A stretch of 64,000 nucleotides of DNA from Naegleria gruberi (GCA_000004985.1 GG738845.1), one strand, 5' to 3'; positions 18,652 to 63,992 are shown, counted from the first letter of the stretch. Translations and numbers: made by a program. The notes: generated by a model from the letters alone, not told the origin.

Positions 18652-20252
18652 TCATAATATCACTCCACTTCCCAGATAGGATAACATGCTTCAATCGGCA
18701 TAAAAATCTACTTATTTCTCCCATTTCATCTTTCCTGTGGTAGAAGAATGTGAAACAGTCTCCCAAGGAAACATCATTAATTCCCTCAGCCTCTTTAATA
18801 TCTGGAAGAGGAATTTTACAAAATCCAAACCTGTTTACTCTGTCACCAAGGGATAATTGTCCAAAATCGTTTCTCCCTTAAAAGAAATAATTATAATAGA
18901 GATTACAAAATAACAAACCTGAAAAATAAAACTCATTTCTATCTGTAATTAATATTGAACGAAAATTTCCACATTTGATAAATTTGATTTTCTCCTTGAA
19001 TTCTATTTTGTTTAAATATCCGCTTGTTAGCTCAGTACACTTTGAGACACCCAATTGTCCATACATATTATTCCCAAAGCTATATAATTCGTTAACTCGA
19101 TTAAGTATAAGTACATGTGAAGCTCCCACAGAAATCATGTCAATCCAACCAATATTAATATTAACGGGTGTAAAAGTATTTCTCTGAATACAGTCAGGAA
19201 ATCCAAGTTGTCCAAATGTATTTTCTAATTAATCTAATATTCAGTGTCATCACTAAAAATTGAAACAAACCTCCACAAGAATAAATTGTATTCTTTCTTG
19301 TTAAAATCACTGTATGAGAATGCCCAAATCCGAAATCCTTAACTGAGTCTGTAATATAATCTATATGGGTAAATGAAGGCACTATAGTGACATTTTGCAA
19401 TCCCAATTGTCCATTTTGATTATTTCCTGCAAGATATAATTTTCCAGATCTTGTTAGGAATCCAGTTTTATGAAGTCCACATTTAAGCAATATTATTTCT
19501 TCACAAAATTGATTGGCATTCGTGGGATGAAAAGTATTACATTCTATCAATTGACCAATCCCTAATTGACCAAACTCGTTATCTAAAAATTATTAACTAT
19601 AAACTTAATTTGAAATTTACCTCCACAACAATAAACTTGATTGTCCAATGTCAATAAAGCAGAATGATACGATTTACTGGCTATTGCTTTAATGGACAGA
19701 GATTTCACTCCCATAACTTGAATAAATTCGAGAACACTTTCGTTGTGACCTAAAAGTTTCTAAAAATCCAAAAGAAAATATATTTACCTAAACCTATTAT
19801 TCACTTTTGTCAAAAACATTAAAATAATAATACAAACCTAATTGCCCACTGTAATTCCTTTGAAATTTAAATAAAATTCAAGAAATTATTACTCACCATC
19901 CTAAAAAGAATGTCACCTGGCAATTTATAATAAATTATAACATACCACACACCCACAATTCATTCCCAAATGTTAATATCATAGAGTGGCTTGCTCCTAG
20001 TTCTATCTGTTTAATTTCCTTTAAAATGTTTTTAGCTGTTTCTTCTACTGTAGAAATCCACTTGGTACTATTGTTGTTATTGTTTGATATTGATAATTGT
20101 CCATAATAGTTTCTTCCACAACAAAGTACTTTATATTTCCTCTGTTCATTCATTTGTTTTGCATCTTCATCACAAGATGAGAATAAAACCCTGTTCGTAA
20201 ATATTTTATTATCATCAAGTTGCAAATGATTTTCCTCTTGATAATTGTTCAT
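18629..20252 (-). CDS. RCC1-repeat protein, multi-exon; exon blocks around 20252-19976, a micro-exon near 19826-19845, 19550-19194, 19138-18878 and 18868-18629
   Basis: Repeated blade motifs: VLCCGRNYYGQLS, ASHSMILTFGNELWVCG(M)NYSGQLGL (via the micro-exon), LAGNNQNGQLGLQ, FGFGHSHTVILTRKNTIYSCGG, FGNNMYGQLGV and GRNDFGQLSLGD. It is interrupted by several short introns. Exact boundaries and the 3' end are uncertain; the last exon may overlap the convergent upstream gene by about 20 nt. Confidence 0.5.
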
Positions 20253-20266
20253 TTTTTATTATCAAT

Positions 20267-21586
20267 TTATTTTCTAAATCCGAACCAGCCACCAGAAGCT
20301 TGTTTCTTGTCTTCAACAGGTTGTTGTTGTTGTTGAGCTTTCTTAATGTTTTGTAATTTTGTAATAAAATCACGAGCTATTTGTTGTGCTGGTTTGTCTC
20401 TGTTTCCGTATTCATTTAAAATTGTCCTCACATCAATTTTACCAGATTTACTGGCTACAAGCTCCAAGAATGGTACTAAATCTGTCAGTAATCTGTCGGA
20501 TGTATCTCCTTTCCATGGCTCAACAACAAGTGTATTTTCAGGTTGCTTACTATAGGCTTCAGCACGGTGGTCAATCAAAACAATCCTTTCGATAGGTCTG
20601 TTCATCAATGACAGATCCTTAATAGTTTTACCATTCTCCATAGTTGTAGAATCCTTGAAGAGTTTGTGAGCATATTGATTTGGATCAAGTCTTTCAATAA
20701 TTTGTTGAACAGATGTCATATAATTTTCACTGAAAAATACCAATTCATAGTATTGACTAATTGTCTTGAGGAAATTATCCAATCCAGGACGTTTTTGTGT
20801 TTTCCAACCTGTACGTGGTGTGTAATAAGTATGAATCAAAAGGTCTTCGACTGCTAAAATCAAAACAGGTTTTTGAGGAGATCCTTCTGCAAGATCAGGA
20901 AGGAGTTTAGAATTGGTTGGTTTGGTTAATGGTGCCATGAGTTCATCAATTTTCTCTTTCAAATTATCAAAGCTAAATCCTATTTCGGAGTATAATCCAT
21001 ACATTGCATAGAGTCCCATCATCATAAAGAAGGGAAGTGAATATTTTACACCATATGCATGCCAGTTTGGTTTTGTACGAATTTTTTCAGTAGCTTGTTG
21101 GTCTCCCATATCCTCATAGTCTGCACCAGTTGTTTTCTTTTTTTCATTTGTCTTTTGTTCTTGTTGTGAATCCTTTTTTTCATTTGTCTTTTTTTCTTTC
21201 TTTGGTTCTTCTGCTTTCTTTTCTTCTTCAGCTGTTGAAGCTTCTTCTTGTTCCTCGGCTTCTTCTGGTTGTGGTGGAGGAGGATTGTTCTTTCTTTCCT
21301 CAGCCTTCATCTTTTTAATTCTTTCGGCTTTTTCTCTCAAATTATAATCATCTTCATTGGATGGTTTTGAACCAACACGAAGAAGAACTTTAGTAGACGA
21401 AGTGAAGGCTCTGTTTTGTTCCAAAGGTTGGAAAGAAAGGAATTTGTTTGTATTAATGTGGTTAAGAATTGATAAGTACATCACTAATAATTGTGAATAA
21501 GTGTAATATTAAAAACATACATTGCTCCTTCCTGGAAAGCTGTCTTCCCGTAGCTTTGGTGAGGGCAGGTAATAAATGTTTGAGCA
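20267..21586 (-). CDS. TIM50: Mitochondrial import inner-membrane translocase subunit TIM50; exons 21586-21520 and 21482-20267
   Basis: FCP1-homology domain PVLILAVEDLLIHTYYTPRTGWKTQKRPGLDNFLKTISQYYELVFFSENYMTSVQQIIERLDP...VLIDHRAEAYSKQPENTLVVEPWKGDTSDRLLTDLVPFLE is a strong TIM50 match. An upstream 67-nt exon MLKHLLPALTKATGRQLSRKEQ(-) looks like a presequence and joins through a 37-nt GTATGT...TAG intron. Confidence 0.8.
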
Positions 21587-21721: not shown

Positions 21722-23384
21722 TTAATGATCTAAAATTTTACTTTTCAATAATTGCTTCTTAGAGAATGATGTTAATTGTCTTACATGGCTGTCCAAAGCA
21801 TCAGAAAATTTGTTGTAAATAGTATAGGAGACATTGTTTTCCTTGCATACCTTTTTAACAATTGGTAAAATTTTTGGGTACAACCATGGATTAATACCAG
21901 GGAATAAGTGATGAATAACTTGGTAGTTCAAAAAACCAGAAAGATATGTCCAGAGGTAACTGTCATGACAATAATCAATGCAGGTAGTGACTTGAATAGC
22001 AGCCCAATCCAAATCGTCATTTCCACCATTGCCTTCATTGCTGTTATCGACCATCTCATTAATAGCATTTGATGGCCAAGCACATTTTTCAGAGATATGA
22101 TTAATTTGAGAAAGGAAGCCAAACATTACTCCAGCAACGATTTCAGTAGCAATAAAGGTCAAAACAGTTTCCATAACATTACGACCAATTAAACCCCCTG
22201 TCTTGTTAAATAAAAAGATTGGTAAAACTATTCTATAAATAAAGAAGAATATCTTACTTCCATAGAAATGGAAAGTAGTAGAGCTAAATGTGGGTGTGGC
22301 AAATGCAATACCTTCACTGACATGTCTTGTCCAATAATGGATAAAATCAACAATTTGCATGTAAAAGATCAATGAAGCATACAAGAAAGGCAATGATCCA
22401 AAAGAACCAGTCTTTGCCATGATATCTACAGGAACAGATGTATAATCCTTTGGTTCAGAATACATTTTAGCAATCAAATCAACCTTTTCATTTTTTGAAC
22501 AAGTGGCCTTAGTTGCTGAAGATGGAGTATTATCAATGTGTCTGTTCCAAGTGTAGACACCAACATCAGGATCAATCTCACTCATGTTAGTATAACTGTT
22601 TTGATAATTAGAAAAGAAAAATACCTAATACATACACGTGATGACCAACATTATGTCTAATGGTCCAAACATAAAAGGATTGGCCCAAAACATATGATCC
22701 AAAATTACCAATCAATCTCCACACTGTTGGAAAATCAGTGAAAGAACCATGACCTAAATCATGAACTACATGAACCAATGCAAGATGATGGAATAAACCA
22801 GCTAATAAACCCAATAAAATTGCAACTCCCAAATTGATTGATGGAAAATATTGAGAGAGAATTTGGCAAGTTAATAGACCTGTGAAAATAAAAATTGCAT
22901 TGCAAAGTCTAAGGCCTGAAACTCTTCTTATGTTCTTTTTGAATCCACTACTTTCATTCTTAATTAATTCATCTCTAATACGTTGTTTCATAATTTCATA
23001 AATATTTGTTTTGTTTGTTGATTGCTTTGGGCCAGAAAGAGGTGATTGGAAAGTGAATTTAATTGCAGCATCATTTGGTAGTTCATCTTGATTAAGAGGA
23101 AGCTTTCCTACTTTGGCACTTTCAACATCGAACTCTCCCACATACTTGATAGAACCTCCAGTGCCTTTGAGGTAGGATCTTGCAATTGATTCGGATGATA
23201 AATGGTATGATTCAAACAAGGCAGTAGCATCACGGGCGCAAGCAGATTCTATCATCTCACGACCACCAGGGTGCTTATCGGCAAACTCCGTCAAATCATA
23301 AACTTTATCGTAGAGAACTGTCCATAAACGAGTGTTCTTTACTCCATCATGCTCTTGAAGTTGTTCGAGTGTAATTTTACTCAT
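21722..23384 (-). CDS. Front-end (delta-5/delta-6-type) fatty-acid desaturase with N-terminal cytochrome b5 domain; exons 23384-22636 and 22595-21722
   Basis: The b5 motif is ...LTEFADKHPGGREMIE. His boxes are HDLGH, HNVGHH and a third QVIHHLFP (QxxHH, the front-end hallmark). A 40-nt GTATGT...CAG intron joins ...HNVGHH-V-YTNMSEIDPDV in frame. Confidence 0.85.
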
Positions 23385-26947: not shown

Positions 26948-26997
26948 GTAAATAGAACACATTTAAAAAATACAATCAACTCTCCCTTGCCAAAAAC

Positions 26998-29823: not shown

Positions 29824-29847
29824 ATATTCAGGATTTACAGTGTAAAT

Positions 29848-34758: not shown

Positions 34759-35099
34759 ATTAAATTCAAGTCAACTTTATGTCAATCTCGTTGTAAATCT
34801 TCAAGTTGTTTTACATGTTCTGCCGTCTCACGTATGACCTGTTTTCAATGAAAGGAGGATATGATGAGTGAGGTTGTGATGATCATTAAAATTCATCAAT
34901 TATTCATCATCGGAAAACTCGTCATCGCTGTCACCATCACTATCATCATTATCGAGGCCATTACCATCCTTAGCATCCTTTTTTCTATCTTCTTCAGCCA
35001 ATTTTTCTGCTTCTCTCATAATATTATGTTGTTTTCTAAGACTCATTGTACTCATTTGTCTTTCCAACTAAATATTTCCACAATAATAGGTTAAATTAT

Positions 35100-35468: not shown

Positions 35469-35534
35469 TTTTATTAATATCGCAAATTGCTCATTTACCA
35501 AACATCAACTCAACAAGAATGATGAAGAAAAAAA

Positions 35535-36788: not shown

Positions 36789-36797
36789 ACTCACATT

Positions 36798-41772: not shown

Positions 41773-41807
41773 TTTTTATTGAAAATGTGCCACTAAAAAT
41801 ACTAAAA

Positions 41808-42374: not shown

Positions 42375-42376
42375 AG

Positions 42377-47834: not shown

Positions 47835-47996
47835 GATCCTAATTGTTTTACTTACTTTCCTTTCCTTCAAATTTATTACATTTAAACTCTTTTTTATAGC
47901 CATCATTTCTGTGTTAACATTGATGGTAAGTAAATGAATATTTTTCAAATCTAGATTTTGTAGAAAATTCTTAAAATCAATTCTCAAACAATTGAA

Positions 47997-48641: not shown

Positions 48642-48661
48642 TAATAATTTATTGGATAAAT

Positions 48662-51600
48662 TTACACTTTAAGGTTTGCTTCAAAGGCCTTAATAAGGTC
48701 ATCAGCCAAATCTTTGATAAGCATAGAGCTTTCAGTTTCTCTAATGCGGAAGATTACAGAATAAAGTTCGGTTGTCATAATCTTAGGATTTTCACACCAT
48801 TTGTATAAGCTTTGCACAATCTTAAGTTGATCAGATCGTACTTTTTTGTCAGAATGGGGTTGAAGAAGGGCATGTTTTACAACTTTGGTAATGAACTCGT
48901 TAGATTGACTTAAAGCCTTGCTTAATTTGACAGAGCTTGATATTATACTAAGAAGAGGAGACGAAACAAAACGAGAGGGTGCGCTACAAAACACGTCTAC
49001 TAGTTTGTTAATATTCTCTGATTTGGCAAGAACAGATTCTACACGTTCCTTGTCTTCATTTAACCATTTGCTCAAAGACTCCATAGCTTTAAGTTGCCAA
49101 TTTTGTACTCCTAATACTTTGATGTAGAACTCTAACATTTTGCTATCTTTCAACTCTTTTCTTACGCTTGGAACGTTCACTCTTACAATTTCACATAACA
49201 TGTCAACAGCAAAGGTTTTTAAAATACTATCATTACTGATAAAATATTGTATCTCAGGAACAATACCAGCTTCCACAGCAATGATTTGACGTTTTTTGTT
49301 AAAGCGAGTAAGGTGGAGTATGGCTGTTATCATTTGGTTACCTATGGAAGCATCTCTTTCGGCTAATATTTTTACAAGGACTGGAATACCATCAGCTTTT
49401 TCAAATGATTCAAATGTGACAGGATAGGTAGCGAGATTTTTTGTTACAATAGCTAGGCTTAGCTTGAATTCTTTCTGATCCTCATTGTTTGTATCGAGAG
49501 TAGAGAAAGATTGTAAAATTCTCTTGAGAGAAGCAACTTCTGCCATATGTGCTCTGACTACTGAATCCATATTTGAGAATAGCAAGAGAAGCGATATTGT
49601 CTTGTCCAAATACTTTTTGGTAACCACATCATTGGTGTTAAGAGAAAATCTTTTCACAAGTAATAACAAAACTTCGCTTAGTCTTGGCATTAACCCGTTT
49701 TTGGAGAATAATCTGCAAAAATCATTCTTTGGAGTTTTGATAGCTTCTTGAGGTAAATCAAAAACTTGTTCAATATTCTCTATTGTTTCGTAAACTAATT
49801 CTATACCATCTTCAAGACGATCATTGTCATGGGCCAACAAGTCAACAAGTACTCTAATTCCTTGACATCCAATAAACATTCTCACTGTAAAATGGCTAGT
49901 CTTGAAAATACTTCTAATAAACGATCCAGCTTGATATCTAACAGCATATGGATAGTTTTTGTGGCAAAATTGCATAATATTTGGAAGTATACCAACTAAA
50001 CACAAAGTCTCTTTAAAGTGAATACTCTCTTGAAACCAGGCAATATCATCCTCTAGAATGAATTGGTTGATGAGCTTTAGGGCTGCCTCTATAGTTTTGT
50101 ATGATGAAGAATACTGTTGAGACATTGAGAGAAGTTCTACAAATGGTATTGGAACAACTGATTTCACTCTACACTTTAATCTAGCGAACTCTGTAAGTAT
50201 GGAAATAAGTTTTTCACATTGCACAACAAACAAGTCTTCTGTCATTACATCCTGTTGAAATTTTTCCAAAAGCATGTTAAAATCCTTCTCTGGTTTTAAT
50301 AGTTCATCATCATTTTGTTTGTCCATATCATCAAAAATATCTTCAAATGTATCTTGGAAGAATAGATCATCCTCAATTGCTTCCTCTGCTCTTCCTTGAA
50401 CTTTTTGCATTTTTGCAAATAAATCTTCAGTAGAATTCTTGTCTCCTTTTCCATCCCATGGATCCAAATCATCCTCCCATTCATCATCGTCATCTTCAAC
50501 ATAGATTGATAAATTTTTCTTACTATTTCCTCCTGGAAAGAATGGTTTTGGAAGGAATTTTTCTTTATCCTTTGGAGCTATGTTAACCATATTTGAGAAA
50601 GGATTTACATCGTCATCATCATCAAAAGGATTATCCTCTCTAGGAGATTTAAGCTTGTTTCCGATTTTTAAAGCAAGTCCATCATCATCATCTCCAAAAT
50701 CAAAATTATCCTCTTCTTCATCTTCATTATATTTTTCGAGTTGTGTTGTCTTGATTTCGCCTTCCTTTTCTTTGGTTGTAACTGGTGTTGGTTGTGTTTG
50801 CTTTTTTCCTTGTAAAATCCAAGGATGTTGTAACAGTTGTTCAGCTGTTTTTCTTGATGTTGGATGCTTTTTAAAACAATCCATTAAAAAGTCTTCACAT
50901 TCCGCTGAGATACCTGTTGGTAGTGGAGGATGTTGATCTTGCACAATTCTATACAATGCAGGCATGGCATCCAAATTAAAATATGGAGGTTCTCCATTTA
51001 AAAGTTCAATAACAGTAGCACCCAAACTCCAAATATCAGAAGCAGGTGTGGAAGGGTTCATTTCAATAATTTCGGGAGCCACTATTAAAGGTTAAAATAA
51101 AAGACGATCAAAAGTTTTACTTACTCCAATACGGTGTACCAACAGGATTGTCATCCACATCTGCTAAAGTTGCAGCCACACCACTATGAAAAGTTATTAC
51201 AAAGGAATTAAATAGTTTTCACTTACAAGTCTGCTAGTTTAATGTCACCTTCCTTTGTTGTTAGAATGTTTGCACCTTTAATATCTCTGTGAATAACACC
51301 TTCAGAGTGTAGGTATTGCAAACCTTCCAATACTTGAGCAACATATTTGCAAACAACATTTTCCTTCATATTACCATATTTTTGTACAATATCCAACAAT
51401 GAACCAGTTTCCACAAACTCAATCACAATATATAATTTACTCTTAGAGGGTATATGATCCACATATCTTACTATTCTATTATGTTTTAACTTTTTCAACA
51501 AATTGATTTCGGTCTGCACATAGAGATCGGATCATGATAATAATAATTAAAACGTACATGAATTGTTTCTATTTGTTCTTTTGAACATTTCTTGACCGTT

Positions 51601-51805
51601 ATTCTTTTTACAGCAACAAATTCACCAGTGTCCGTATTGTAGGCTTTATAAACAACGCCAAAACCACCTCTACCTAATACCTCTCCCAATCTCTTTTAAT
51701 AACACTATTAACAACATACTAATATCATTAACCTACATATTTGTTGCCTATAGTTTTAACCTTGTCCTTCTTTTTCTTTGATTTCTTATCTGTCTCACCC
51801 ACCAT
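48662..51805 (-). CDS. Cdc7(S. pombe)/Cdc15/SepH-type serine/threonine kinase with long C-terminal helical (ARM/HEAT-like) repeats; exons 51805-51737, 51692-51558, 51513-51227, 51183-51125, 51081-48662
   Basis: Spliced N-terminus [23 protein letters not shown]|[17 protein letters not shown]...AVKRI...EQIETIH|[17 protein letters not shown]...[25 protein letters not shown]|[19 protein letters not shown]|MAPEIIEM...[21 protein letters not shown]...HPPLP. Identity to the Cdc7/SepH kinase-domain landmarks is very high. Four introns of 44, 44, 43 and 43 nt (GTAGGT/GTACGT/GTAAGT...AG) all keep frame. Confidence 0.85.
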
Positions 51806-51891
51806 TTTATTAGAGCAGTTGGTTCCGGACAGATGAAACCGTCAATTTTTTCTAATTAAAAAATTTAATTGTTATTATTATTTACAAATTA

Positions 51892-53448: not shown

Positions 53449-53492
53449 CTACATACAAATCAGTTTAGATAAAAAATACATTAGATTAAAAA

Positions 53493-55909
53493 ATGGACGT
53501 ACTCAAGGAAAAGCAATTCATGATAACCTCGGAAAGGTGGCAATTATTGGAGAAGGAAAGATTGGAGATGTAAGTGTAATCAATTAATGTAATACTTATT
53601 ATTCAGACTAAGGAAGAGAGAATTAATTGAACACAGGATTGATTTACGATATCACTCAGAGGAAGGATTGGAGCAACATAGATCTGATTATTATAAGAGA
53701 CTTTTGAAAAAGGTGGAAGACAATTTGGAAAAGAGTAAAATTAGGAACAAACTTTTGGTGAACAAAGCAGATGATCTTCTACAAAGCGTCTCAGTATCAA
53801 ACTCAAACAACCTTGTAAAGTCAAAAGTCAAGTTAGAGGTTGCAAAGGTAAGGAATAATTTCTCAAATTTCTTACACTCAAAAGAAACAATTTTTACAAT
53901 CCTTCCAGGACAGAGTAAAGGAATATGAGGAATTGGGGAGACACCAAAAACTCAAACAAATCAGAAAGACAGAAGAGGAAATTGAAATTGAGAGAAGGAA
54001 ATTGAGGGAGTCTACATTGGAATGGGAAAGAGAAAAGAAAGTTAATAATGATCTTCAAGAAAAAATTAAAGAGCTCATTGTAACAAAAGAAATATCAAAA
54101 AAAGAGGCTATTGAGAGGGAGGCAGAAAGAAAGGCTATTCTTGAAGGAGAGAGAAAAATCCAAAGAGCTGTTGAACAAACATCCGTTGATGCGTCAAAAA
54201 GATATTTGGAGAAAGAAGAAAAGAGGAAATTAGAAGCTGTTGACGGTAAAGATATTAAATACAAAGGTAAGAAGAAACTGGAAACATCTTTAATTTTAAC
54301 AACCTTAACAGGTCTTGTCGAAGAAGTGTACGAAGGAAAAATTGGAATTGCTGCTAGAGAAAAATTTGTGTCTCAAGAATCGTTTGAAATACAATCTCAA
54401 CAAGTTCAAAAACCTGTTGATGAATTATACTATAATGACGGATATAGCAGCTTTGAAGAAAAGCATAATCCAAACAGTTTTGCAAAATTTAAAGAATGGC
54501 AGAAAAAACAAACTGTTGACAAGAAGAAACCCGAAATGTCTCAAACACAAAAGCCAAAACATCAAACCCAGCAACAAACCCCAATTACTCAACCAATGAG
54601 GGAAAATTGTGTTGAAAAAAATTATAGACAGGAAGAGTTCAAAGAAATTAAGCCAGCACGAGAAGATTACAAAGAAATTAAGCACGAGGTCAGGGAGGAG
54701 GAAATAAAACCAACTCCTGTGTCCCAGACGACAAAGGACGTGCTTGGAGATAGCATTGGATCAATTGAAGATAGGGAATCTGAGAGTGATGACATCACCA
54801 AATCATTCTTGGAATCTATCAAAAAACCAATGTTGGTTTCAGCTTTGAGTAAGAAGGATGACAAGACTTCTCCCATCTCATCAATGATAAAACCATCAAG
54901 CCCAAAGAACATAGTTATCACTCCAGAAGAAACAAAGAATAATAACTTTGTTAAAATTCAGTCTCCTAAATCCTTTACAAGTACTTCACCACAACAAAAT
55001 AGAACAAACCAAACCTTTGCAAACCAACAAGCAACCTCAATCTCCCCAACAAAATCTACACCCCCTCCAAATCCTGTTATTGAAAAAAAGAAGGAAATTG
55101 AAACTAAAAAAGATCCAGAAAAAGATCCAGTAGAACACAAGGAAGGTGATTCAAAAACGAAAAAGATCAAAAGTTTCTTTTCTGCAGCATTCAAATTTAA
55201 TGGGAAGAAGAAGGAAGAAGAAAAATCAGAGGAGACTGAATCATCCTCTGAAAATGATTCAAATGCACAAGACAAAGAAGGAGACAATATGGTCCAACAA
55301 AGAGTCAAAAAGTTAAACCAATCAAAACTGGTTACAACTCTGTCTTCTTACATGCTAGAGTTAGAAAATCACCTTAAAGAACAAAAAGAAAGGTACAACA
55401 AAATGTCCTTAAACTACAAGCTGGAAAATAAGGAGAGTCAAGAAACGTTGGTATACTCAAACTGCCCAAAGATAAATGGGAAAAATAGAGTACTGAATAT
55501 TGAATCATCCAAGAAAGAAATTGAGCCAGTCATGAAGTGCGTGGCTTGTTTAGATATAATACAGTATCTCCCATCACCATTAATAAGTGTTGAAATATTG
55601 GATGAATATTTAGAAAAAGACACTGAGTATGAAATTGAACAACTTTCGAAGTATTTGAATTCATTTGGCTTAGAAGTTTGGCGATTAATAATAACACATG
55701 TTTCCAACTTGTCAAAGTTGGAACCCAAGTGGAGAGAGCCCTTACTGAAAGTGTTTTCTGAATCAATTTGCAAAACCCTTCCACCAAGTAAGAACACAAC
55801 TGAAGCTAAAAACAAAACAAAGACCCTGCTGAAAACTTATATTTCAACCAAAAAATCCAACACTACTATTCCTGACACAACAACACTCGAACAACCAAAA
55901 AAGAAGTAA
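53493..55909 (+). CDS. E/K-rich coiled-coil protein (hypothetical, possibly axonemal); exons 53493-53569, 53607-53847, 53909-55909
   Basis: The first exon MDVLKEKQFMITSERWQLLEKERLE ends with a split codon (at|GTAAGT), then a 37-nt intron, then exon 2 ...ILRKRELIEHRIDLRYHSEEGLEQHRSDYYKRLL... A 61-nt GTAAGG...CAG intron leads into the large exon. All junctions keep frame. Confidence 0.55.
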
Positions 55910-55949
55910 GTAACTTACTGTATTATTGCAATTAATGTTTTAAAGTTCT

Positions 55950-56378: not shown

Positions 56379-59300
56379 CTACCACAGTAAGTGGTAAAAG
56401 TGCAACTCTCTTATCAATAATTTCCTGTACTCATCGTATAAAAGTATTAGAATACCATAAAATACTGGAAGTAGCCAAAACAACCAAATCATATTTCTTG
56501 TTCCAAAAATATAATCACCAATAAAAGGTACATAAATAGCAATACAAGCTATGCATACAGAAAATATTATTCCCATGTAAATGGCCAAATTACTAAACAT
56601 TCCTTGCATAAGTAAAGATGTTCTTCTGGTTCTAGAGCTTACTAAAGCAAACCATTGACAAACAACTATTGCAAGGAAGTAAGCCGTTTGGGCTGTTGCT
56701 AGAATATTCCATTGGGCAGATGGAGATAGAAAAAGCCCTGTTTCTGCAATATACAAGTATTGGGTAGTCGAAAGAGAAAAAAAGCCAGGTACACTTCTAA
56801 ATAGGTAATGAGGAGGAATTCCATAGTAGGCCAAAGCAAAGAAGAAGGAGGTAAAGGCGGCCAATGTTTCAATAACACCAACCTGCATATATGAAAATGA
56901 AAGTACTCTCACACCAACAAGAAGCTCTGATTTTGGTCTTGGAGGAACTGTCATAATGTCGCTCTCTTTTGTCTCATACGATAAACTAATTGCTGCCACC
57001 AACTCAGTACCGAGGTCTATGCACAACACTAATAAACCAGTTATTGCTGGAGGCATTCCAATAATTATTACAAGTATTCCACAAAGTTCTGGGAGTAAAT
57101 GAATAAGAGTATAACTAATACTCTTTTTCAGGTTATCAAAAATCAATCTTCCTTCCTCTACTCCATTTACAATTGAGGCAAAATTGTCATCCATTAAAAT
57201 AATGGCAGCAGCTTCTTTTGAAACGTCTGAACCAGATATATTCATAGCAATGCCAATATCTGCCTTTTTTAGTGCTGGTGAATCATTTACACCGTCCCCA
57301 GTAACTGCAACACAATTTCCAGCTTCTTGAAATTTGCTAACAATGACCAATTTTTGTTGAGGAGAGGTTCTAGAAAATACAATCTGCTTTTTCTTCAAAA
57401 TATATTTCCATTCTATGTCTTTTAATTTATCTATTTCCTCTCCATTAAGAACCACTGCATCAACATCTGGTCTTTTGTACTCAATTATTTCTGGTGGAAA
57501 ACCCTCCTCAGCAGCAATGTCATCTCTCGTTTTACTATTTGATTCAAGAATACCAACCTGTTTTGCTATTGCTTTGGCAGTTGTGGGATGGTCACCTGTT
57601 ACCATTACAACTTGAATCCCTAAAAGAAATTAATTACAAATTTTCATAATGAATTCACTTACCTGCATGTTTACATTTGGTAATAGCATCTGTAACTCCA
57701 ACTTTTGGTGGGTCAGTCAATCCCACAAGCCCTATAAATGTAAACCCATTTAAAGGTAATTGTTGGTTAGTATCATCAGAAACTGCAATAGTACTACCGG
57801 TAGGATCTCCTCCAATCTTAACTGTACCTGTTTCTTCTCTCTCTTTTACTTGATTTACTAAATCAGTGGTGGTAAATCTTTGAGCTAATCCTAATACACG
57901 TTGTCCCTTACTGGCAAAAAAAGAGTAGGCATCTTGAAAGTGTTGTCTTAAATCATCATTGATGGATATTGCCTGACTATTCAAATAAATGGAATCACAT
58001 TTTTCCAATACTCTCTCTGGTGCTCCTTTCAACAGCATTAGTGAGTTCGCATTATCAAAACATTGACCTTGACAAGAGTGAATGGTGAGCATCCACTTGT
58101 TCTTTGAATTGAAGGGAATTTCATAAAGTTTTGGAAAACCATTTCTAATATCCATTAAGCTGGCATACTCTGATCTTGTTTCTACAAATTTTACAAGTGC
58201 TATTTCTGATGCATCTCCAATGCATTCCCTGTCTAGGATTGGTTTGTTTAAATTCTCTTCAGATTCAACGAAAATGGTCTTGGAACAGAGTGCGGAACAT
58301 CTAATGAGTTTTTGTGGAGTTGATAAATTTACCTCTTCAATGTTAGCAAAGTTTGGGAGTGATTCTACGTTTGGTTTGGATTTCATCATTCTATTTTGAT
58401 AACAGACATCTGAAAGTGATCCATCACACCACTGTTCTACAACCGTCATTCTGTTCTGAGTGAGGGTGCCTGTTTTATCAGAGCAAATTACATTTACACC
58501 ACCCAATGTTTCTACATGCTCTAATTTCTTTACCAATACGTTAATATCTGATAATCTCTTTGCAGAAACTGTCAAACATAATGTCATTGTTGCAATCAAA
58601 CCTTGTGGAATGTTGGCAGCAATAATTCCAGTACTGAAAAGAACACACTGAAACCATGGATTTCCTAATGCAAGCCCAATCACAAAAAATACAACAGCTA
58701 AAATTAGCGACATAGAACCTAAAGTTCTTACAAAAGTGTCTATTTGCCTTCTTAGAGGTGTTTTTAAGGGAGAAGCTTGGGCCATTAGAGCAATTTGGCC
58801 AATAACTGTTTGACCACCAGTCCTAATAACAATACCAATTGCACTCCCTTCAACAACAATAGTTCCAAAGAATGCAAGATTTGAAGATTCTAAAGGATTA
58901 TGAGAAGATGATTCAACAGTTCTGGACTGTGGCTCAGATTCTCCTGTCAATGAACTGTTATCCATTTTCAAACCATTTACGAATAATAGTCTTAAATCAG
59001 CTGGAACTTTAGAGCCAGGTTCAATATGAATCAAATCTCCGACTACAACTTCTGAAACATCTATTCTTTGTAAATTTCCCTCTCTTATAACCATACAGTT
59101 AGCTGTTTGTAAAGCTAAAAAGGCAGCAATAACTTTTTCAGAGCTATGTTCTTGCCATAGAGTAATTGTTGCGTTCATAACCACCACAAACCAGAGTATG
59201 GCCCCTAAAAATATATTTGGATAAGAGGCAGGTGTACGGTCAATGGCAACATTAATGAAACTCAATAACCCAGCAAATAACATTAGTAAAGAGAAGAGGG

Positions 59301-60192: not shown

Positions 60193-60983
60193 TTAATTAT
60201 CCTTAAATAAATACACTTCAATATTAGCCAGTGAATCTGCAAGTGTTAATAATTCTTTTTCCATAATATAGATCGCATCCTGAGATTGTGGAGCATAAGA
60301 ATATGCTTCAACTGCTAATAATCCTGCATCGAGTATTTCAAAAGGCTCTGGTTGATTTTTATCAAAATTTGTTGTAACATTAGCTCTCTTTTTCACTTTT
60401 TTCACAACAAATACGTCTACAAAATATCCAGTTTTAGATACAAAACGGTTTCCTTCTTTCACATATTCATGAGAAAAACTATTAAATCAAATATTTTCAT
60501 TAACATTATTAAATAAATTACTTACTCACAACCCATCATTTCCGACATTACAAGTGGATTGCCTCCATATATTGTACTTAGTGTGACAGTTCTAACAGTA
60601 GATTTGAAAGGAGCCTCCTTCTTTGGAATAACTATTTTTCCAAGTGATTTAATTTCTCTCCAAATAACTTGTTCAATAGATTTTGTTTGATTAAGCTTCT
60701 CTACCACAATATCAGCTAAAATATGAAATTCAACTTCTTTACTCTTAGAAAGAGAAATCATAGAGGCATCTTCTGATGTAGAAATATTGCTATTAGTAGA
60801 AACAACAGGAGGAAGGGATGATTTGGTACGGTAAACATTGATCCACTCTTTAAAAGGTTTTGGTTTTGATCCGATGATTGATGTTAATCTAGAGATTAGT
60901 ATTTCTTTTTGTTCATCTTGAATACAGCCTGTAATTTTAATTTCGTTGGTTATTGTATTTACAGGAAGGGAAGATAAATTCAT
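60193..60983 (-). CDS. Hypothetical protein of about 248 aa; exons 60983-60526 and 60478-60193
   Basis: Two ORF blocks joined by a 47-nt GTAAGT...TAG intron (…SEMMGC-D-FSHEYVKEGNRF…), in frame. No family recognised. Confidence 0.5.
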
Positions 60984-61004
60984 TTTTTTATTATTTTTTT
61001 AATA

Positions 61005-63992
61005 TTAATCGGTAATACTTTTAATAAAATTGAAAAATCGCCCTGCATACATGTTTGGATCAACCACACTCACACCACTTTCACCACCAAAATAGAGAGT
61101 TTTGATAAGGTTTTCTCCTCTCTTTTTTAGGCCATACTGAATCAAAATATCAATTATTCCAACAAAATAATATTCATCTCCTAGGCTTGATCTCATACCT
61201 CCACATTCTTCTTGATAGAATGTTCTTGGAGGAGGAGAAATATGGAAAGGATCATTATAATTAATTGGTTTTTCTCGTAACTTGTTGATTTCATGAACAC
61301 CAACAAGCATTGAATAATCTATTATTTCATTTGCCTCCAAAAATTTGGTGTCTGACTCAACCTGTCTCAAGAACCACTCCTTCTTGGATCCTAAATTTAA
61401 AGATTGCTCAGAATCTTTCCAATTTAAATCTTTTAATATTCCAACACCAGATGAATTGAATCTACCAATTGTACTTCCTTTCAAATCATAAATTTTGTCA
61501 ATAGGTAATTGAGTGTCAAAAGCATTTCCCATTACAATGAAGTAGGTATCATTAATTCTATGAAGACCGTATATTCTAGTAAGGAGTGTATTCCTGTTTC
61601 TATGTAAATAAGTATAATACTGAGATAAAAATACTAGTGCTGTTTCGAATTCTGATGTAGAAATAGTTTTACATAAAAATCTACCATTATTTGTATAGAA
61701 GAAGAAATTTCCACTTTTTCCATCAGTTAGTCTTTCACTCAGTGAGGTTAATCTTCCTACTAATAAATTACTAATAAACATTTCAGGCCCAAAAGACAAA
61801 GCATATTCCTCCTCTGAAACTCCAAATATTGCTCTAATATTTCTAAATACTAGAGGAGCAAAATCTGTAAATGTGATATGTTCATCAATGTACCTGGTCG
61901 ATTCATCATTACCACTAACTCCATCTTGCTTGATGCATGTCAAAAATTTTGCTAGTGGGATCTCAAAAGAATAAGTATATTTGAAATCTCTCATATAAAG
62001 ATAGTCATTTGAAAAGTTAGATCTATTTTCCTGTGCAGCTCTAATACCTAACATCATTGATAAAACCTTATGAAATGAAGGATGGCCAAATAAAACCGGA
62101 TACCCACCATTTCTCGGAAGATTTTTCATTAATTTGGATTGTAAATTTGAATCTATTGGAAATTGTGAAAATCCAAGTATTAAGAAGGGATTTTGTTTGA
62201 TTGCTTTCAAATAATCTTGAGCCGTAAAAGAATCATTGTTGGTAATACAGCTGAAAATTCTATCAGCTACACTACCAGCATAATTAAGAGTTTCACTAGT
62301 TCCTATTAGAACAAAGTTTGAAGGAGAAGTAGGACTTAAGGCCGAGTTGGAAACATAAAGTCCCATATATTCCAGAATTGAAAATATTTGTTGAAATAAC
62401 AATTTAAATTCTTGTCTTGTTACACTACCATTTCCTTCCTTATCCATAATATTGAATCCAAATAATATTTGTTCATCAACAATATTGTTAGAATATAACA
62501 ATGCAAGGTTTTCTTTGAAATCTGACATTTCTATTAATCCACTCCTGTTAGAATCAAATGCATTAAAAATTCTACCTCCAAAACTATTAAGAATTTTTGA
62601 TTTCTTCACTGTTGGATATGGTGCTGAAAAATCAAATAAAAACTCCTTATCAAACGCAACCAAGGATAAATGCTTTACAAATTCATGAATATCCAAAACA
62701 TTATCTTTTGTTTGTCCGTCTATATAACCAAATACAGCATTGAAATATTTGTGTTCTTCATCTGAAAGCTTATTAGTAAGCTCTCTTTTTTGAATATTGC
62801 TGATCATTCTTTGAGATAGTGACTTTCTCTTTGATTTTTTCTGAGTTACTTGGAATTCAGATTGAGATCTTTGTAAGTTCTTTTTTTCTTCAAACTTTGG
62901 TGTGCCTTTTGCGCTATCCATTGATTGGTTAACTGGTTGTATTGGTTGAGGCGGAAAATTAAGAGGAGGTATGACCGGTGTGCTCTTTATGGAGAGATTG
63001 TATGGATCATTACTGTTAGGAGAGGATTTTTGTTGAGAAGTTGGTGTTTGACTTTTCAGTTCCTTTTGTACTGGTTTTTCAGGGGTTGTGTTATTCATAG
63101 CTTGTTCAAAAAGAGCAGAAAGATGTTTAACTGATCCTGATGGTTTTGCTGATTTTTCATCTTCAACTGTTTTACAAAGTCTTTTTTCATCTTGAAGATT
63201 GTCCTTAGATACAATTTTAGGTGGAACCTTTGGCTTTGGTCTTTCAGGTGATTCTCTTTGAAGGGACAATGATGGCACTTCTGATAAACTCTTTCTTTTG
63301 AAAGGAGGGGGAGTTCTTTTTCTTGTTGAATTTTCATTAGTGGAAGGAGTATTGTTTACAGAAACGTTAGTGGGTGGTAAAGGTTTTGTCAGAGAAGTTC
63401 GATCTCCTCTGGGTGATCTATCTAAGATATAACTTGAACTATTAGTTACAGTAAGAGAGCTGGAGGAAGAAGTGTTTGAGCTGGTTGGTGGTGTGGAAGT
63501 TGAATTATTAGTGAAAAAGGATGATCCATTCTTTGTAAATATTTTGATTCTACTACTGTTAGAATCGGAGAATGATGAAGATGAGTGTAAACCAAACTCT
63601 TGATTGCCAAGTATTAATCCGCCACCACTTCCAATCTTTTTAGTGGATGATTCTACAGGTGTTCCTAATGAGGGATAAATTGTGGAGTCTTCTTCATTGG
63701 TTCCCCTCTCATCATTTGAATCATCAATACCACCAAAGTAACTTTTCCTATTCTTTAAAATTAATTCACTCCTATAGAGGCATTCTCTAGCAAAGAAGAA
63801 TAATTGTTGTGAACCCAAATCAACAGACCAAGATGTGCCCTTCTCCGATTTATCACCAGTAGTTAATTGTCTAAGTTGAGAGGTAATTAAATCAATACAA
63901 CACAAATACTGAGCAAACGCTTCTACATAATTCTTATCATCCTCATATTTTAAAGCATTTGAAAGTGAGAGTCTAACCTGATTCAGAGACAT
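61005..63992 (-). CDS. Phosphatidylinositol 4-phosphate 5-kinase (PIPK core) with a long N-terminal S/T/P-rich region and an EF-hand-like segment
   Basis: PIPK catalytic landmarks: ...GKSGNFFFYTNNGRFLCKTISTSEFETALVFL..., ...DYSMLVGVHE..., ...YFVGIIDILIQYGLKKRGENLIKTL... Two EF-hand-like loops (DSNRSGLIEMSDF and DKEGNGSVTRQEF). Single 995-aa ORF with its start at 63992. Confidence 0.85.
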   Translation of the reverse strand: MSLNQVRLSLSNALKYEDDKNYVEAFAQYLCCIDLITSQLRQLTTGDKSEKGTSWSVDLGSQQLFFFARECLYRSELILKNRKSYFGGIDDSNDERGTNEEDSTIYPSLGTPVESSTKKIGSGGGLILGNQEFGLHSSSSFSDSNSSRIKIFTKNGSSFFTNNSTSTPPTSSNTSSSSSLTVTNSSSYILDRSPRGDRTSLTKPLPPTNVSVNNTPSTNENSTRKRTPPPFKRKSLSEVPSLSLQRESPERPKPKVPPKIVSKDNLQDEKRLCKTVEDEKSAKPSGSVKHLSALFEQAMNNTTPEKPVQKELKSQTPTSQQKSSPNSNDPYNLSIKSTPVIPPLNFPPQPIQPVNQSMDSAKGTPKFEEKKNLQRSQSEFQVTQKKSKRKSLSQRMISNIQKRELTNKLSDEEHKYFNAVFGYIDGQTKDNVLDIHEFVKHLSLVAFDKEFLFDFSAPYPTVKKSKILNSFGGRIFNAFDSNRSGLIEMSDFKENLALLYSNNIVDEQILFGFNIMDKEGNGSVTRQEFKLLFQQIFSILEYMGLYVSNSALSPTSPSNFVLIGTSETLNYAGSVADRIFSCITNNDSFTAQDYLKAIKQNPFLILGFSQFPIDSNLQSKLMKNLPRNGGYPVLFGHPSFHKVLSMMLGIRAAQENRSNFSNDYLYMRDFKYTYSFEIPLAKFLTCIKQDGVSGNDESTRYIDEHITFTDFAPLVFRNIRAIFGVSEEEYALSFGPEMFISNLLVGRLTSLSERLTDGKSGNFFFYTNNGRFLCKTISTSEFETALVFLSQYYTYLHRNRNTLLTRIYGLHRINDTYFIVMGNAFDTQLPIDKIYDLKGSTIGRFNSSGVGILKDLNWKDSEQSLNLGSKKEWFLRQVESDTKFLEANEIIDYSMLVGVHEINKLREKPINYNDPFHISPPPRTFYQEECGGMRSSLGDEYYFVGIIDILIQYGLKKRGENLIKTLYFGGESGVSVVDPNMYAGRFFNFIKSITD

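What the first reader, a model, noticed from the sequence alone, without database searches (positions are those of the whole stretch)
20252..61010. Hyper-compact gene packing: nt-scale spacers, overlapping convergent stop codons, and a uniform 37-47 nt intron class
Examples read directly from the sequence:
- The TIM50 stop (20267-20269) is only 14 nt from the next same-strand ORF's ATG (20252), with no AG between them.
- The PIP5K stop (~61005) is about 25 nt (all A/T) from the next same-strand ATG (60983).
- The divergent ATGs at 41772 (-) and 41808 (+) are 35 nt apart.
- Convergent CDSs at 40426-40429 share overlapping stop codons (TAA on +, TAG on -).
- Convergent genes at 29823/29848 and 48641/48662 are about 20 nt apart.

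Most introns I could define fall in 37-47 nt (37, 37, 37, 40, 42, 42, 43, 43, 43, 44, 44, 44, 47) with GTAAGT, GTATGT or GTAGGT donors. Same-strand spacing this tight implies overlapping transcription units, polycistronic transcription, or extremely short UTRs. All three are unusual.
Basis: seen in the sequence. Interest (0 to 1): 0.6.

Follow-up and report, generated by a model that had tools for sequence, protein, structure and literature searches.

The report
Dense gene packing in Naegleria gruberi
This is an ordinary but extremely gene-dense stretch of the published Naegleria gruberi nuclear genome: genes almost touch or slightly overlap and introns are about 40 bases long, so neighbouring transcription units must overlap, which is a known consequence of genome compaction rather than a new mechanism.

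Summary
The window is a Naegleria gruberi NEG-M nuclear scaffold; nine of my gene products are identical to deposited proteins.

My re-annotation gives 34 genes in 64 kb and about 92% coding sequence. Median gaps between coding sequences are 67 nt (same strand), 97 nt (divergent) and 17 nt (convergent). Two convergent pairs overlap, by 23 and 4 nt. There are 27 introns with a median of 42 nt, and 24 fall within 37-47 nt.

The tight same-strand starts are real:
- The N-terminus of the Med18-like gene is conserved in two relatives.
- The TIM50 to RCC1-like pair is syntenic in a relative, with a 34-nt spacer.
- Both ATGs carry the local A-rich start signature and score as coding.
- An independent assembly reproduces three junctions, so they are not assembly collapses.

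Strand orientation switches almost every gene, and the 14- and 21-nt spacers contain no AG. This argues against polycistronic or spliced-leader expression. It favours single-gene transcription units with minimal untranslated regions that overlap their neighbours. That behaviour is known from microsporidia and nucleomorphs, and prokaryote-like gene density is already noted for Naegleria. Interest is low to moderate.

The parts
20267..21481 (-). TIM50-like gene (NIF phosphatase domain), single exon, stop TAA at 20267-20269
   Evidence: Pfam NIF E=3.6e-35. An ortholog with a conserved C-terminus is present in relative L006. The start at 21481 has a poor A-rich context, so the start is less certain.
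20253..20266 (-). 14-nt same-strand spacer ATTGATAATAAAAA between the TIM50 stop and the RCC1-like ATG
   Evidence: Read; it contains no AG. AATAAA overlaps the TIM50 stop codon. In relative L006 the same gene pair is separated by 34 nt.
18629..20252 (-). RCC1-like gene, 7 exons, 441 aa. No identical or near-identical protein was found in the protein collection.
   Evidence: Pfam RCC1 hits. Exon structure. No hit above 37% identity. Ortholog exon-1 ORF P0149 is 59% identical and ends at the same WVCG exon boundary. Start context scores 6.98 bits against a 99th percentile of 3.93 for other ATGs. Codons 1-33 score 0.37 bits per codon.
19897..19900 (-). Candidate 4-nt micro-exon GATG between a 45-nt intron (19901-19945) and a 39-nt intron (19858-19896)
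   Evidence: It is needed to keep the reading frame and yields ELWVCGWNYSGQLG. Relative L006 encodes that same peptide with a single intron after WVCG.
61005..63992 (-). PIP5K gene, 995 aa, stop TAA at 61005-61007
   Evidence: Identical to EFC50642 / XP_002683386. Pfam PIP5K E=4e-69.
60984..61004 (-). 21-nt all-A/T same-strand spacer between the PIP5K stop and the Med18-like ATG
   Evidence: Read. It is identical in an independent assembly. The orthologous spacers are 67 nt (L003) and 226 nt (L001).
60193..60983 (-). Med18-like gene, 2 exons (60526-60983, 60193-60478), 247 aa
   Evidence: Weak Pfam Med18 hit. The deposited model P0131 starts at internal Met75. The first 75 residues are nevertheless conserved in P0133 and P0134, which start at the same Met. 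Start context scores 5.51 bits against -14.2 for Met75.
40426..41772 (-). Tmemb_40-family membrane protein gene, 448 aa
   Evidence: Pfam hit. Both the N- and C-terminus align with the N. fowleri ortholog P0135 at 71% identity.
40426..40429 (.). 4-nt overlap CTAA of convergent coding sequences (TAA on +, TAG on -)
38168..40429 (+). Coiled-coil protein gene, 753 aa, whose stop overlaps the Tmemb_40 stop
   Evidence: ORF listing. Coding score is highest in the annotated frame. No Pfam hit and no ortholog check.
41773..41807 (.). 35-nt spacer between divergent ATGs; it contains a 3-codon upstream mini-ORF at 41786-41797
   Evidence: Both ATGs have an A-rich context, 4.87 and 4.56 bits.
41808..42374 (+). 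188-aa predicted membrane protein gene
   Evidence: ORF listing. Best coding score among the six frames, although low at 0.11 bits per codon. No Pfam hit.
42375..42376 (.). 2-nt gap between convergent stop codons (42372-42374 on +, 42377-42379 on -)
   Evidence: The minus-strand partner is identical to EFC50637.
29824..29847 (.). 24-nt convergent spacer between the RBR E3 ligase gene and the DNA polymerase alpha gene. It holds the palindrome ATTTACAGTGTAAAT, which reads TGTAAAT on both strands.
   Evidence: DNA polymerase alpha is identical to EFC50634.
48642..48661 (.). 20-nt convergent spacer between gene g28 and the kinase gene
   Evidence: The same 20-nt gap is present in independent contig L007.
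18629..18651 (.). 23-nt overlap of convergent coding sequences (1563-aa gene on +, RCC1-like gene on -)
   Evidence: The RCC1-like C-terminus (WSDI.I plus 8-9 residues) is conserved in L006.
35469..35534 (.). 66-nt divergent spacer between the DUF2039 gene and the SET/TPR gene
   Evidence: The DUF2039 start equals the deposited start. A TPR hit at residues 66-98 of the SET gene supports a longer N-terminus than deposited model P0286. Independent contig L009 gives the same spacing.
26948..26997 (+). 50-nt same-strand spacer (gene 26345-26947 to the RBR gene ATG at 26998)
   Evidence: The upstream gene is identical to EFC50287.
51806..51891 (-). 86-nt same-strand spacer (radial-spoke-head gene stop to kinase ATG at 51805)
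   Evidence: Both flanking models are identical to deposited proteins.
51082..51124 (-). Kinase intron, 43 nt
   Evidence: The spliced product equals EFC50639.
51184..51226 (-). Kinase intron, 43 nt
51514..51557 (-). Kinase intron, 44 nt
51693..51736 (-). Kinase intron, 44 nt
22596..22635 (-). Desaturase intron, 40 nt
   Evidence: The spliced product equals EFC50633.
35068..35117 (-). DUF2039 intron, 50 nt
   Evidence: It reproduces deposited protein P0007.
37421..37464 (-). Fcf1 intron, 44 nt
   Evidence: It gives a 211-aa Fcf1 protein ending ...[13 protein letters not shown]. Not checked against a deposited model.
57620..57662 (-). P-type ATPase intron, 43 nt
   Evidence: It joins two ORFs carrying consecutive P-type ATPase domains.
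60479..60525 (-). Med18-like intron, 47 nt
   Evidence: The spliced C-terminal part is identical to P0131.
53570..53606 (+). Intron, 37 nt, in gene 53493-56333
53848..53884 (+). Intron, 37 nt (GTAAGG donor), same gene
55906..55945 (+). Intron, 40 nt, same gene
47796..47835 (+). Intron, 40 nt, in the gap-containing gene 47258-48641
47926..47963 (+). Intron, 38 nt, same gene
18877..18918 (-). RCC1-like intron, 42 nt. The other introns of this gene are 19225-19270 (46), 19583-19620 (38), 19750-19837 (88), 19858-19896 (39) and 19901-19945 (45).

Best explanation
The window is a typical euchromatic stretch of the Naegleria gruberi NEG-M nuclear genome in which non-coding DNA has been squeezed to a minimum.

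Each gene is most likely its own transcription unit. An A-rich tract sits directly in front of the ATG, so the 5' untranslated region is probably very short or nearly absent. Where a spacer exists, compact promoter elements lie within about 25-45 nt upstream. 3'-end signals (AATAAA-like and TGTAAAT) lie at or just after the stop codon.

The spacers are shorter than a promoter plus two untranslated regions. The following consequences are therefore inferred, not shown:
- The promoter of a downstream same-strand gene lies inside the upstream coding region.
- The 3' end of the upstream mRNA runs into the downstream coding region.
- Convergent mRNAs overlap antisense at their 3' ends.

Introns are held near a minimal spliceable size of about 37-47 nt, with a GTAAGT/GTATGT donor consensus.

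Shown here: organism identity, gene content, exact spacers, intron set, validity of the start and stop codons at the tight junctions, and independence from the assembly.
Inferred: positions of transcript ends, promoters embedded in neighbouring genes, and transcript overlap.
For: Identity
- Nine products are identical to N. gruberi NEG-M proteins on a 1.56-Mb scaffold.

Density
- 34 genes and about 92% coding sequence. Median gaps are 67 nt (same strand), 97 nt (divergent) and 17 nt (convergent); 14 of 33 gaps are 50 nt or less.

Starts next to the tight spacers
- Med18-like gene: the N-terminal 75 residues are conserved in two relatives that start at the same Met.
- TIM50 to RCC1-like pair: syntenic in relative L006, with a 34-nt spacer and a CAACAAAAAATG start.
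- Tmemb_40 gene: both termini are conserved with N. fowleri.
- 24 of 32 starts have at least 5 A in positions -6 to -1, against 57 of 2268 other ATGs. The disputed starts score 4.6-7.0 bits, above the 99th percentile of other ATGs.
- The N-terminal segments score as coding only in the annotated frame.

Not an artefact
- Contigs from run ERR1078381 are 99.8-99.96% identical and colinear across three junctions.

Single-gene transcription units
- 19 strand switches among 34 genes, mean same-strand run 1.7 genes (the later addition of g21b changes neither figure).
- The paired genes are functionally unrelated.
- The orthologous spacer length varies (21, 67 and 226 nt), so each gene keeps its own start.
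- Heterolobosea show about 2 genes per same-strand run.

Compact control signals
- E2F-like TTTSSCGC sites sit 25-43 nt upstream of ATGs, including two in front of DNA polymerase alpha. Five of eight sites lie in the ~8% of the window that is non-coding.
- AATAAA occurs in 16 gene 3' flanks and TGTAAAT in 9, where 0.8 are expected.
- The TGTAAAT downstream of PIP5K lies at +42, inside the Med18-like coding sequence.

Precedent
- Overlapping transcripts and very short 5' untranslated regions are documented in compact microsporidian genomes.
- Naegleria gene density is described as prokaryote-like.
Against: - No transcript data could be examined, so no transcript start or polyadenylation site is shown.
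- The A-tract, AATAAA/TGTAAAT and E2F-like motifs are enrichments in one AT-rich 64-kb window. They are not tested signals.
- The RCC1-like start rests on context, coding score, synteny and a weak similarity (NRVLFSSC versus NYHVFEKQC). It does not rest on clear N-terminal conservation. Starting at in-frame Met34 instead would give a 113-nt spacer.
- The 188-aa gene at 41808 has no homolog and only a low coding score.
- Published genome-wide figures (57.8% coding, mean intron 203 bp) differ greatly from this window. The window is therefore either denser than average or the deposited annotation is incomplete, and I could not tell which.
Confidence: 0.8

Rival explanations
1. The tight same-strand pairs (TIM50 plus RCC1-like, PIP5K plus Med18-like) are co-transcribed as dicistronic or polycistronic RNAs. 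The downstream protein would then be made after spliced-leader trans-splicing, or by translation re-initiation.
For: - The 14- and 21-nt spacers leave no room for a promoter.
- Both pairs are syntenic in relatives.
- Heterolobosea are the sister group of Euglenozoa, which do use polycistrons.
Against: - There is no AG acceptor in either spacer.
- Strand orientation switches almost every gene, with a mean same-strand run of 1.7 genes.
- Heterolobosean genomes lack long same-strand gene runs.
- The Rfam scan of the window found nothing, including no spliced-leader RNA; this is weak evidence because the window is only 64 kb.
- The upstream ORFs are 404 and 995 codons long. From general knowledge of eukaryotic translation, re-initiation or leaky scanning after such long ORFs is implausible.
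- Orthologous spacers of 67 and 226 nt show that the downstream gene works with an ordinary upstream region.
Confidence: 0.08
2. The downstream genes really start at internal ATGs, or are not genes at all, so the real spacers are ordinary. On this view the first-ATG assignment is an ORF-reading artefact.
For: - The deposited Med18 model starts at Met75 and the deposited SET model at Met122.
- No identical or near-identical protein was found for the RCC1-like gene.
- Elsewhere in the window the first ATG of an ORF is not the start: at 5010 versus 5166.
Against: - Med18-like residues 1-74 are conserved in two species.
- The SET N-terminal extension carries a TPR domain.
- The RCC1-like ortholog also has an N-terminal extension, and it sits 34 nt after the TIM50 stop with an A-rich start.
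- Start-context scores strongly favour the upstream ATGs.
- The coding score of the disputed N-terminal segments equals that of confirmed genes.
- Convergent overlaps depend only on stop codons, and those of Tmemb_40 and the RCC1-like gene are supported by orthologs.
Confidence: 0.07
3. The tiny spacers are assembly collapses or other sequence errors in the draft scaffold.
For: The window holds three runs of N: 7886-8286, 37019-37068 and 47555-47604.
Against: - None of the N runs is at a cited junction.
- Contigs assembled independently from run ERR1078381 match at 99.8-99.96% and are colinear across 61005/60983, 48641/48662 and 35468/35535.
- Relatives show similarly tight spacing of 34, 27 and 67 nt.
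Confidence: 0.01

Closest known systems
Overlapping transcription in compacted eukaryotic genomes (microsporidia Encephalitozoon cuniculi and Antonospora locustae; nucleomorphs; Williams et al. 2005, cited through PMC3629993)
   Same: - Coding density around 90%.
- Spacers too short for separate untranslated regions and promoters.
- Mixed strand orientation.
- Transcripts expected to start in upstream genes or end in downstream genes.
- Very short 5' untranslated regions.
- Gene pairs kept together in relatives.
   Different: - Naegleria is a free-living organism with a 41-Mb genome and about 15,700 genes, not a reduced parasite or endosymbiont remnant.
- It keeps many introns.
- Transcript overlap is inferred here from geometry, not observed.
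Published Naegleria genome descriptions (N. gruberi: Fritz-Laylin 2010, figures as tabulated in PMC8296547; N. fowleri gene density in PMC9465069)
   Same: - Same organism and same scaffold.
- High gene density and frequent small introns are implicit in the published annotations. N. fowleri is reported as 71-73% coding, a minimum intron of 30 nt was used for read mapping, and its gene density is described as 'more typical for prokaryotes'.
   Different: - This window is far denser (about 92% coding, median intron 42 nt) than the published N. gruberi averages (57.8% coding, mean intron 203 bp).
- Several genes here appear truncated in, or missing from, the deposited protein set.
Polycistronic transcription with spliced-leader trans-splicing (Euglenozoa; nematode and Oikopleura operons)
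   Same: Very short same-strand gaps between functionally unrelated genes. Heterolobosea are the sister lineage of Euglenozoa.
   Different: - No long same-strand gene clusters.
- No AG acceptor in the tightest spacers.
- No spliced-leader RNA found in the window.
- Divergent and convergent pairs are packed just as tightly.
Minimal-intron classes of other compact protist and fungal genomes (for example Paramecium at about 25 nt and fission yeast at about 40-50 nt; from general knowledge, not checked here)
   Same: Narrow length distribution near a lower limit, canonical GT...AG ends, and an extended GTAAGT-like donor.
   Different: The mode here is about 37-47 nt. One gene appears to place two such introns only 4 nt apart.

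Membership tests
Naegleria gruberi NEG-M nuclear genome | Encoded proteins are identical to deposited NEG-M proteins from one scaffold | tested here: met
   Nine exact matches (EFC50284, 50287, 50291, 50633, 50634, 50637, 50638, 50639, 50640, 50642 series), all on a 1,555,553-bp contig. GC content is 0.33, as published.
Compact eukaryotic genome with overlapping single-gene transcription units (microsporidian / nucleomorph type) | Gaps between coding sequences are too short for a promoter plus two untranslated regions, in all three orientations | tested here: met
   Median gaps are 67, 97 and 17 nt. The minimum is 14 nt for same-strand pairs and 35 nt for divergent pairs; convergent coding sequences overlap by up to 23 nt.
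Compact eukaryotic genome with overlapping single-gene transcription units (microsporidian / nucleomorph type) | Gene orientation is mixed, with no long same-strand clusters | tested here: met
   Same-strand runs are 6,1,2,3,3,1... genes long, mean 1.65.
Compact eukaryotic genome with overlapping single-gene transcription units (microsporidian / nucleomorph type) | mRNAs that begin inside the upstream gene or end inside the downstream gene | not testable with these tools
   No transcript data for N. gruberi were reachable. Spliced products that were found in the protein collection came only from the genome annotation sources (NCBI, UniRef), not from run-level assemblies.
Polycistronic transcription with spliced-leader trans-splicing | Long runs of same-strand genes | tested here: not met
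   Mean run is 1.65 genes and the maximum is 6. Heterolobosea average about 2 genes per run with no heavy tail.
Polycistronic transcription with spliced-leader trans-splicing | A 3' splice acceptor (AG) in the spacer upstream of each downstream ORF | tested here: not met
   There is no AG in the 14-nt or the 21-nt spacer.
Polycistronic transcription with spliced-leader trans-splicing | Spliced-leader RNA genes, and a leader sequence on mRNA 5' ends | tested here: inconclusive
   No Rfam family hit in the 64-kb window. Spliced-leader genes could lie elsewhere in the genome, and mRNA 5' ends were not available.
Minimal spliceosomal intron class | Narrow length distribution with canonical GT...AG ends and an extended donor consensus | tested here: met
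   24 of 27 introns are 37-47 nt. All have GT...AG ends. GTAAGT, GTATGT or GTAGGT donors account for 19 of 27. Three spliced models reproduce deposited proteins.

The most novel reading that the evidence does not exclude
Naegleria, a free-living eukaryote with a large gene repertoire, may run much of its genome with physically interleaved transcription units:
- promoters of downstream genes embedded in the last codons of upstream genes;
- polyadenylation signals fused to stop codons, or shared as palindromes by convergent genes (for example ATTTACAGTGTAAAT at 29830-29844);
- pervasive antisense overlap of 3' ends.

A further consequence would be that the reference annotation misses or truncates a sizeable share of genes exactly where packing is tightest, so the true coding fraction would be well above the published 57.8%.
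Probability: 0.45. Interest if true: 0.4.

Novelty: new member of a known kind. Interest (0 to 1): 0.25.

Why it matters
- It shows that near-microsporidian packing can occur in a free-living, gene-rich eukaryote. That bears on whether compaction needs parasitism or reduction.
- It has a practical consequence. Gene finders tuned to ordinary eukaryotic spacing appear to truncate or skip genes here: the Med18-like and SET models are shortened, and no match was found for the RCC1-like gene. Naegleria proteomes used in reconstructions of the last eukaryotic common ancestor and in pathogen comparisons may therefore be incomplete.
- The conserved gene pairs with collapsing spacers (226 to 67 to 21 nt) offer a natural series for studying how promoters and terminators migrate into neighbouring coding sequence.

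Tried and rejected
- Looking up gene tables for the scaffold by exact protein found nothing, so I built the gene models by hand.
- The full-length RCC1-like query returned only generic RCC1 proteins at 37% identity or less.
- A concatenated query (RCC1-like exon 1, TIM50 tail, Tmemb_40 and the 188-aa protein) returned just three hits. The word pre-filter appears to have been swamped by low-complexity words, and only the N. fowleri Tmemb_40 ortholog was useful.
- The metagenome scan with TIM50 found no relative. The TIM50/RCC1-like ortholog locus was reached instead through an exhaustive search with exon 1.
- The Fritz-Laylin 2010 and Williams 2005 papers are not held. Several literature searches gave nothing on Naegleria untranslated regions or transcript overlap.
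- My first-pass intron scans were too permissive and were replaced by scans restricted to pairs of adjacent same-strand ORFs.
- My first models for Fcf1 and DUF2039 treated read-through ORF tails as coding. They were corrected after comparison with the deposited protein and the C-terminal motif.
- I considered and rejected a TIM50-RCC1-like or PIP5K-Med18-like fusion gene. Each gene has its own stop codon and its own A-rich ATG, and the spacer lengths differ between species.
- No tRNA or Rfam RNA lies in the larger spacers.

Full report
**Identity**

The window is AT-rich, with GC about 0.33 throughout, and is filled with long ORFs on both strands. Exact-sequence look-ups show that nine of the encoded proteins are identical to deposited Naegleria gruberi NEG-M proteins, all from one 1,555,553-bp scaffold. 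They include:
- DNA polymerase alpha, EFC50634
- PIP5K, EFC50642
- a serine/threonine kinase, EFC50639
- a cytochrome-b5 desaturase, EFC50633
- a radial spoke head protein, EFC50640

The finding is therefore about the known nuclear genome of a free-living heterolobosean amoeboflagellate.

**Checking the observation**

- The TIM50-like gene (Pfam NIF) stops at 20269-20267. The next minus-strand ATG is at 20252. The 14 nt between them, ATTGATAATAAAAA, contain no AG.
- PIP5K stops at 61007-61005 and the next ATG is at 60983. The spacer is 21 nt, all A/T, not about 25.
- The divergent ATGs at 41772 and 41808 are 35 nt apart.
- At 40426-40429 the sequence CTAA is a TAA stop on the plus strand and a TAG stop on the minus strand.
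- The convergent gaps at 29823/29848 and 48641/48662 are 24 and 20 nt.

- stop codons 2 nt apart at 42374/42377
- a 23-nt overlap of convergent coding sequences at 18629-18651
- a 14-nt convergent gap at 11694/11709
- same-strand gaps of 48-50 nt at three places
- divergent gaps of 56 and 66 nt

**Gene models**

No gene table could be retrieved, so I built the models by hand. I used ORF maps, three-frame translations, Pfam hits and intron searches between adjacent same-strand ORFs. The result is:
- 34 genes in 64 kb
- about 92% coding sequence
- 33 gaps between coding sequences with a median of 66 nt

By orientation, the gaps are as follows:

| Orientation | Number of pairs | Median gap (nt) |
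|---|---|---|
| Same strand | 14 | 67 |
| Divergent | 9 | 97 |
| Convergent | 10 | 17 |

Fourteen gaps are 50 nt or less. The models are anchored in several ways:
- My five-exon kinase and two-exon desaturase reproduce the deposited proteins residue for residue.
- The DUF2039 model reproduces EFC50635 once its 50-nt intron is used.
- Five further single-exon models are exact matches.

**Introns**

The 27 introns I could define measure 37-55 nt, with one of 88 nt. The median is 42 nt and 24 fall within 37-47 nt. All have GT...AG ends. Donors are GTAAGT (10), GTATGT (6), GTAGGT (3), GTTTGT (3) and five others, each seen once. The published mean of 203 bp for N. gruberi must be driven by a long tail or by doubtful models, because none of the introns needed here is long.

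**Are the starts next to the tight spacers real?**

This is the weak point of any ORF-based reading. Elsewhere in the window the first ATG of an ORF is demonstrably not the start (5010 versus 5166). Four lines of evidence bear on the disputed starts.

1. Med18-like gene. The deposited model begins at internal Met75. However, two homologs from other species (54% and 49% identical) begin at the same Met as my model and conserve the first 75 residues.
2. TIM50 to RCC1-like pair. An exhaustive search with exon 1 found an orthologous exon-1 ORF (59% identical, ending at the same WVCG exon boundary). Its contig shows TIM50 followed 34 nt later by this gene, with the start context CAACAAAAAATG.
3. 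Start context. Start codons in this window have a strong signature. 24 of 32 have at least five A in the six positions before the ATG, against 57 of 2268 other ATGs. In a leave-one-out position-weight score, the disputed starts reach 4.6-7.0 bits, and the 99th percentile of other ATGs is 3.9. The in-frame alternatives score 2.4 (RCC1-like Met34) and -14.2 (Med18-like Met75).
4. Coding score. A codon-usage score trained on confirmed genes gives 0.37 bits per codon for RCC1-like codons 1-33 and for Med18-like codons 1-74. This is within the range of confirmed genes (0.27-0.57), and all other frames score lower.

For the overlapping stop codons, both termini of the Tmemb_40 gene align with its N. 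fowleri ortholog. The C-terminus of the RCC1-like gene is conserved in the relative. The least secure items are the RCC1-like start, which lacks clear N-terminal sequence conservation, and the 188-aa gene at 41808, which has no homolog and a low coding score.

**Assembly artefact?**

The window has three runs of N (7886-8286, 37019-37068, 47555-47604). None is at a cited junction. Contigs assembled independently from run ERR1078381 are 99.8-99.96% identical to the window. They are colinear through the PIP5K/Med18-like junction, the 48641/48662 junction and the 35468/35535 junction. Assembly collapse is therefore excluded for those three. It is implausible for the rest, because relatives show similar spacing of 34, 27 and 67 nt.

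**How it most likely works**

Orientation changes 19 times among the 34 genes, with a mean same-strand run of 1.7 genes (the later addition of g21b changes neither figure). Divergent and convergent neighbours are packed as tightly as same-strand ones. The two tightest same-strand spacers have no AG that could serve as a trans-splice acceptor. No RNA family, including spliced-leader RNAs, is detected. A recent comparative study finds about two genes per same-strand run, and no polycistron signature, in Heterolobosea. The genes in each tight pair are functionally unrelated. The orthologous PIP5K to Med18-like spacer is 21, 67 or 226 nt depending on species, so the downstream gene clearly functions with its own upstream region.

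I therefore favour single-gene transcription units with minimal untranslated regions that overlap their neighbours. Three observations fit this:
- E2F-like TTTSSCGC sites lie 25-43 nt upstream of ATGs, including two in front of DNA polymerase alpha, a classic target. Five of eight such sites fall in the ~8% of the window that is non-coding. This places promoter elements very close to the ATG.
- 3' flanks are enriched for AATAAA (16 genes, often overlapping the stop codon, as in TIM50) and TGTAAAT (9 genes, 0.8 expected).
- The TGTAAAT after PIP5K lies 42 nt downstream, inside the Med18-like coding sequence. The 24-nt spacer between the RBR ligase gene and the polymerase alpha gene is essentially a palindrome that reads TGTAAAT on both strands.

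None of these signals is tested, and transcript ends remain inferred. For convergent pairs whose coding sequences overlap, antisense overlap of the two mRNAs is unavoidable if both genes are expressed.

**Comparison with what is known**

This is the pattern described for compacted microsporidian and nucleomorph genomes: overlapping transcripts, transcription initiating in upstream genes or terminating in downstream genes, and very short 5' untranslated regions. High gene density is already on record for Naegleria. N. fowleri is reported as 71-73% coding, and its gene density is described as being 'within a range more typical for prokaryotes'.

What goes beyond the record I could search is the degree of packing here: 92% coding against the published 57.8% for N. 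gruberi. There is also an apparent cost to annotation:
- The deposited Med18 and SET models are truncated at the N-terminus.
- The RCC1-like gene has no counterpart in the protein collection.
- Several other ORFs have no exact match.
- The accession series leaves fewer slots than there are genes. This last point is only an inference from numbering.

I found no open-access statement on Naegleria untranslated-region lengths or transcript overlap.

**Verdict**

The phenomenon belongs to a known kind (genome compaction with overlapping transcription units and minimal introns) in an already sequenced organism. Interest is low to moderate. The most useful follow-ups are mapping transcript ends and re-annotating with compaction-aware settings.

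Noticed in passing
window 19897-19900 (-), with introns 19901-19945 and 19858-19896: Candidate 4-nt micro-exon GATG in the RCC1-like gene, flanked by canonical 45-nt and 39-nt introns. It is required to keep the reading frame and gives ELWVCGWNYSGQLG. A relative (L006:6100-6180) encodes the same peptide with only one intron, so N. gruberi seems to have gained an intron inside the Trp codon.
   Followed up: partly
window 18629-20252 (-): A seven-exon RCC1-like gene, conserved in a relative, has no identical or near-identical entry in the protein collection. It therefore appears to be missing from the deposited N. gruberi annotation.
   Followed up: partly
window 60193-60983 (-) and 35535-36788 (+): The deposited models for the Med18-like gene (173 versus 247 aa) and the SET/TPR gene (296 versus 417 aa) start at internal Met codons. 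The missing N-termini are conserved in relatives (Med18-like) or carry a TPR domain (SET).
   Followed up: yes
All gene starts in the window, for example 20253-20262, 60984-60993, 53483-53492: There is a strong A-tract immediately upstream of start codons. 24 of 32 starts have at least 5 A in positions -6 to -1, against 2.5% of other ATGs. This may be a translation-initiation context or a transcription initiator for near-leaderless mRNAs.
   Followed up: partly
window 29830-29844, and 3' flanks generally: TGTAAAT occurs within 60 nt after 9 stop codons (0.8 expected) and AATAAA after 16. The palindrome ATTTACAGTGTAAAT between two convergent genes reads TGTAAAT on both strands. These are candidate polyadenylation signals, in this case shared between the two genes.
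   Followed up: partly
window 4230, 12385, 33497, 33511, 53413: E2F-like sites (TTTSSCGC / GCGSSAAA) lie 25-43 nt upstream of ATGs. There are two in front of DNA polymerase alpha and one in the 116-nt divergent spacer at 53377-53492.
   Followed up: partly
window 7886-8286, 37019-37068, 47555-47604: Three runs of N (assembly gaps) lie inside or next to genes. The independent contig L009 spans the 37019-37068 gap and there gives an uninterrupted 159-aa ORF (MQLTD..., ATG at 37256 with an AAAAAAATG context). This is probably an additional small gene ending 9 nt from the SET gene's stop.
   Followed up: partly
window 41786-41797 (+): A three-codon upstream mini-ORF (ATG TGC CAC TAA) sits inside the 35-nt divergent spacer, ahead of the ATG at 41808. 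If it is transcribed, it would be an upstream ORF on a very short leader.
   Followed up: no
L001 3700-3927, L003 2312-2380, L006 5636-5671: Both tight same-strand pairs are syntenic in related heteroloboseans recovered from metagenomes and sequencing-run assemblies, but with different spacer lengths: PIP5K to Med18-like 226, 67 and 21 nt; TIM50 to RCC1-like 34 and 14 nt. This suggests progressive loss of spacer sequence with the gene order retained.
   Followed up: partly
window 21481 (-): The TIM50 start at 21481 has an atypical, non-A-rich context (-6.4 bits). In-frame Met58 has a good context (3.7 bits). The true TIM50 start is therefore uncertain.
   Followed up: no
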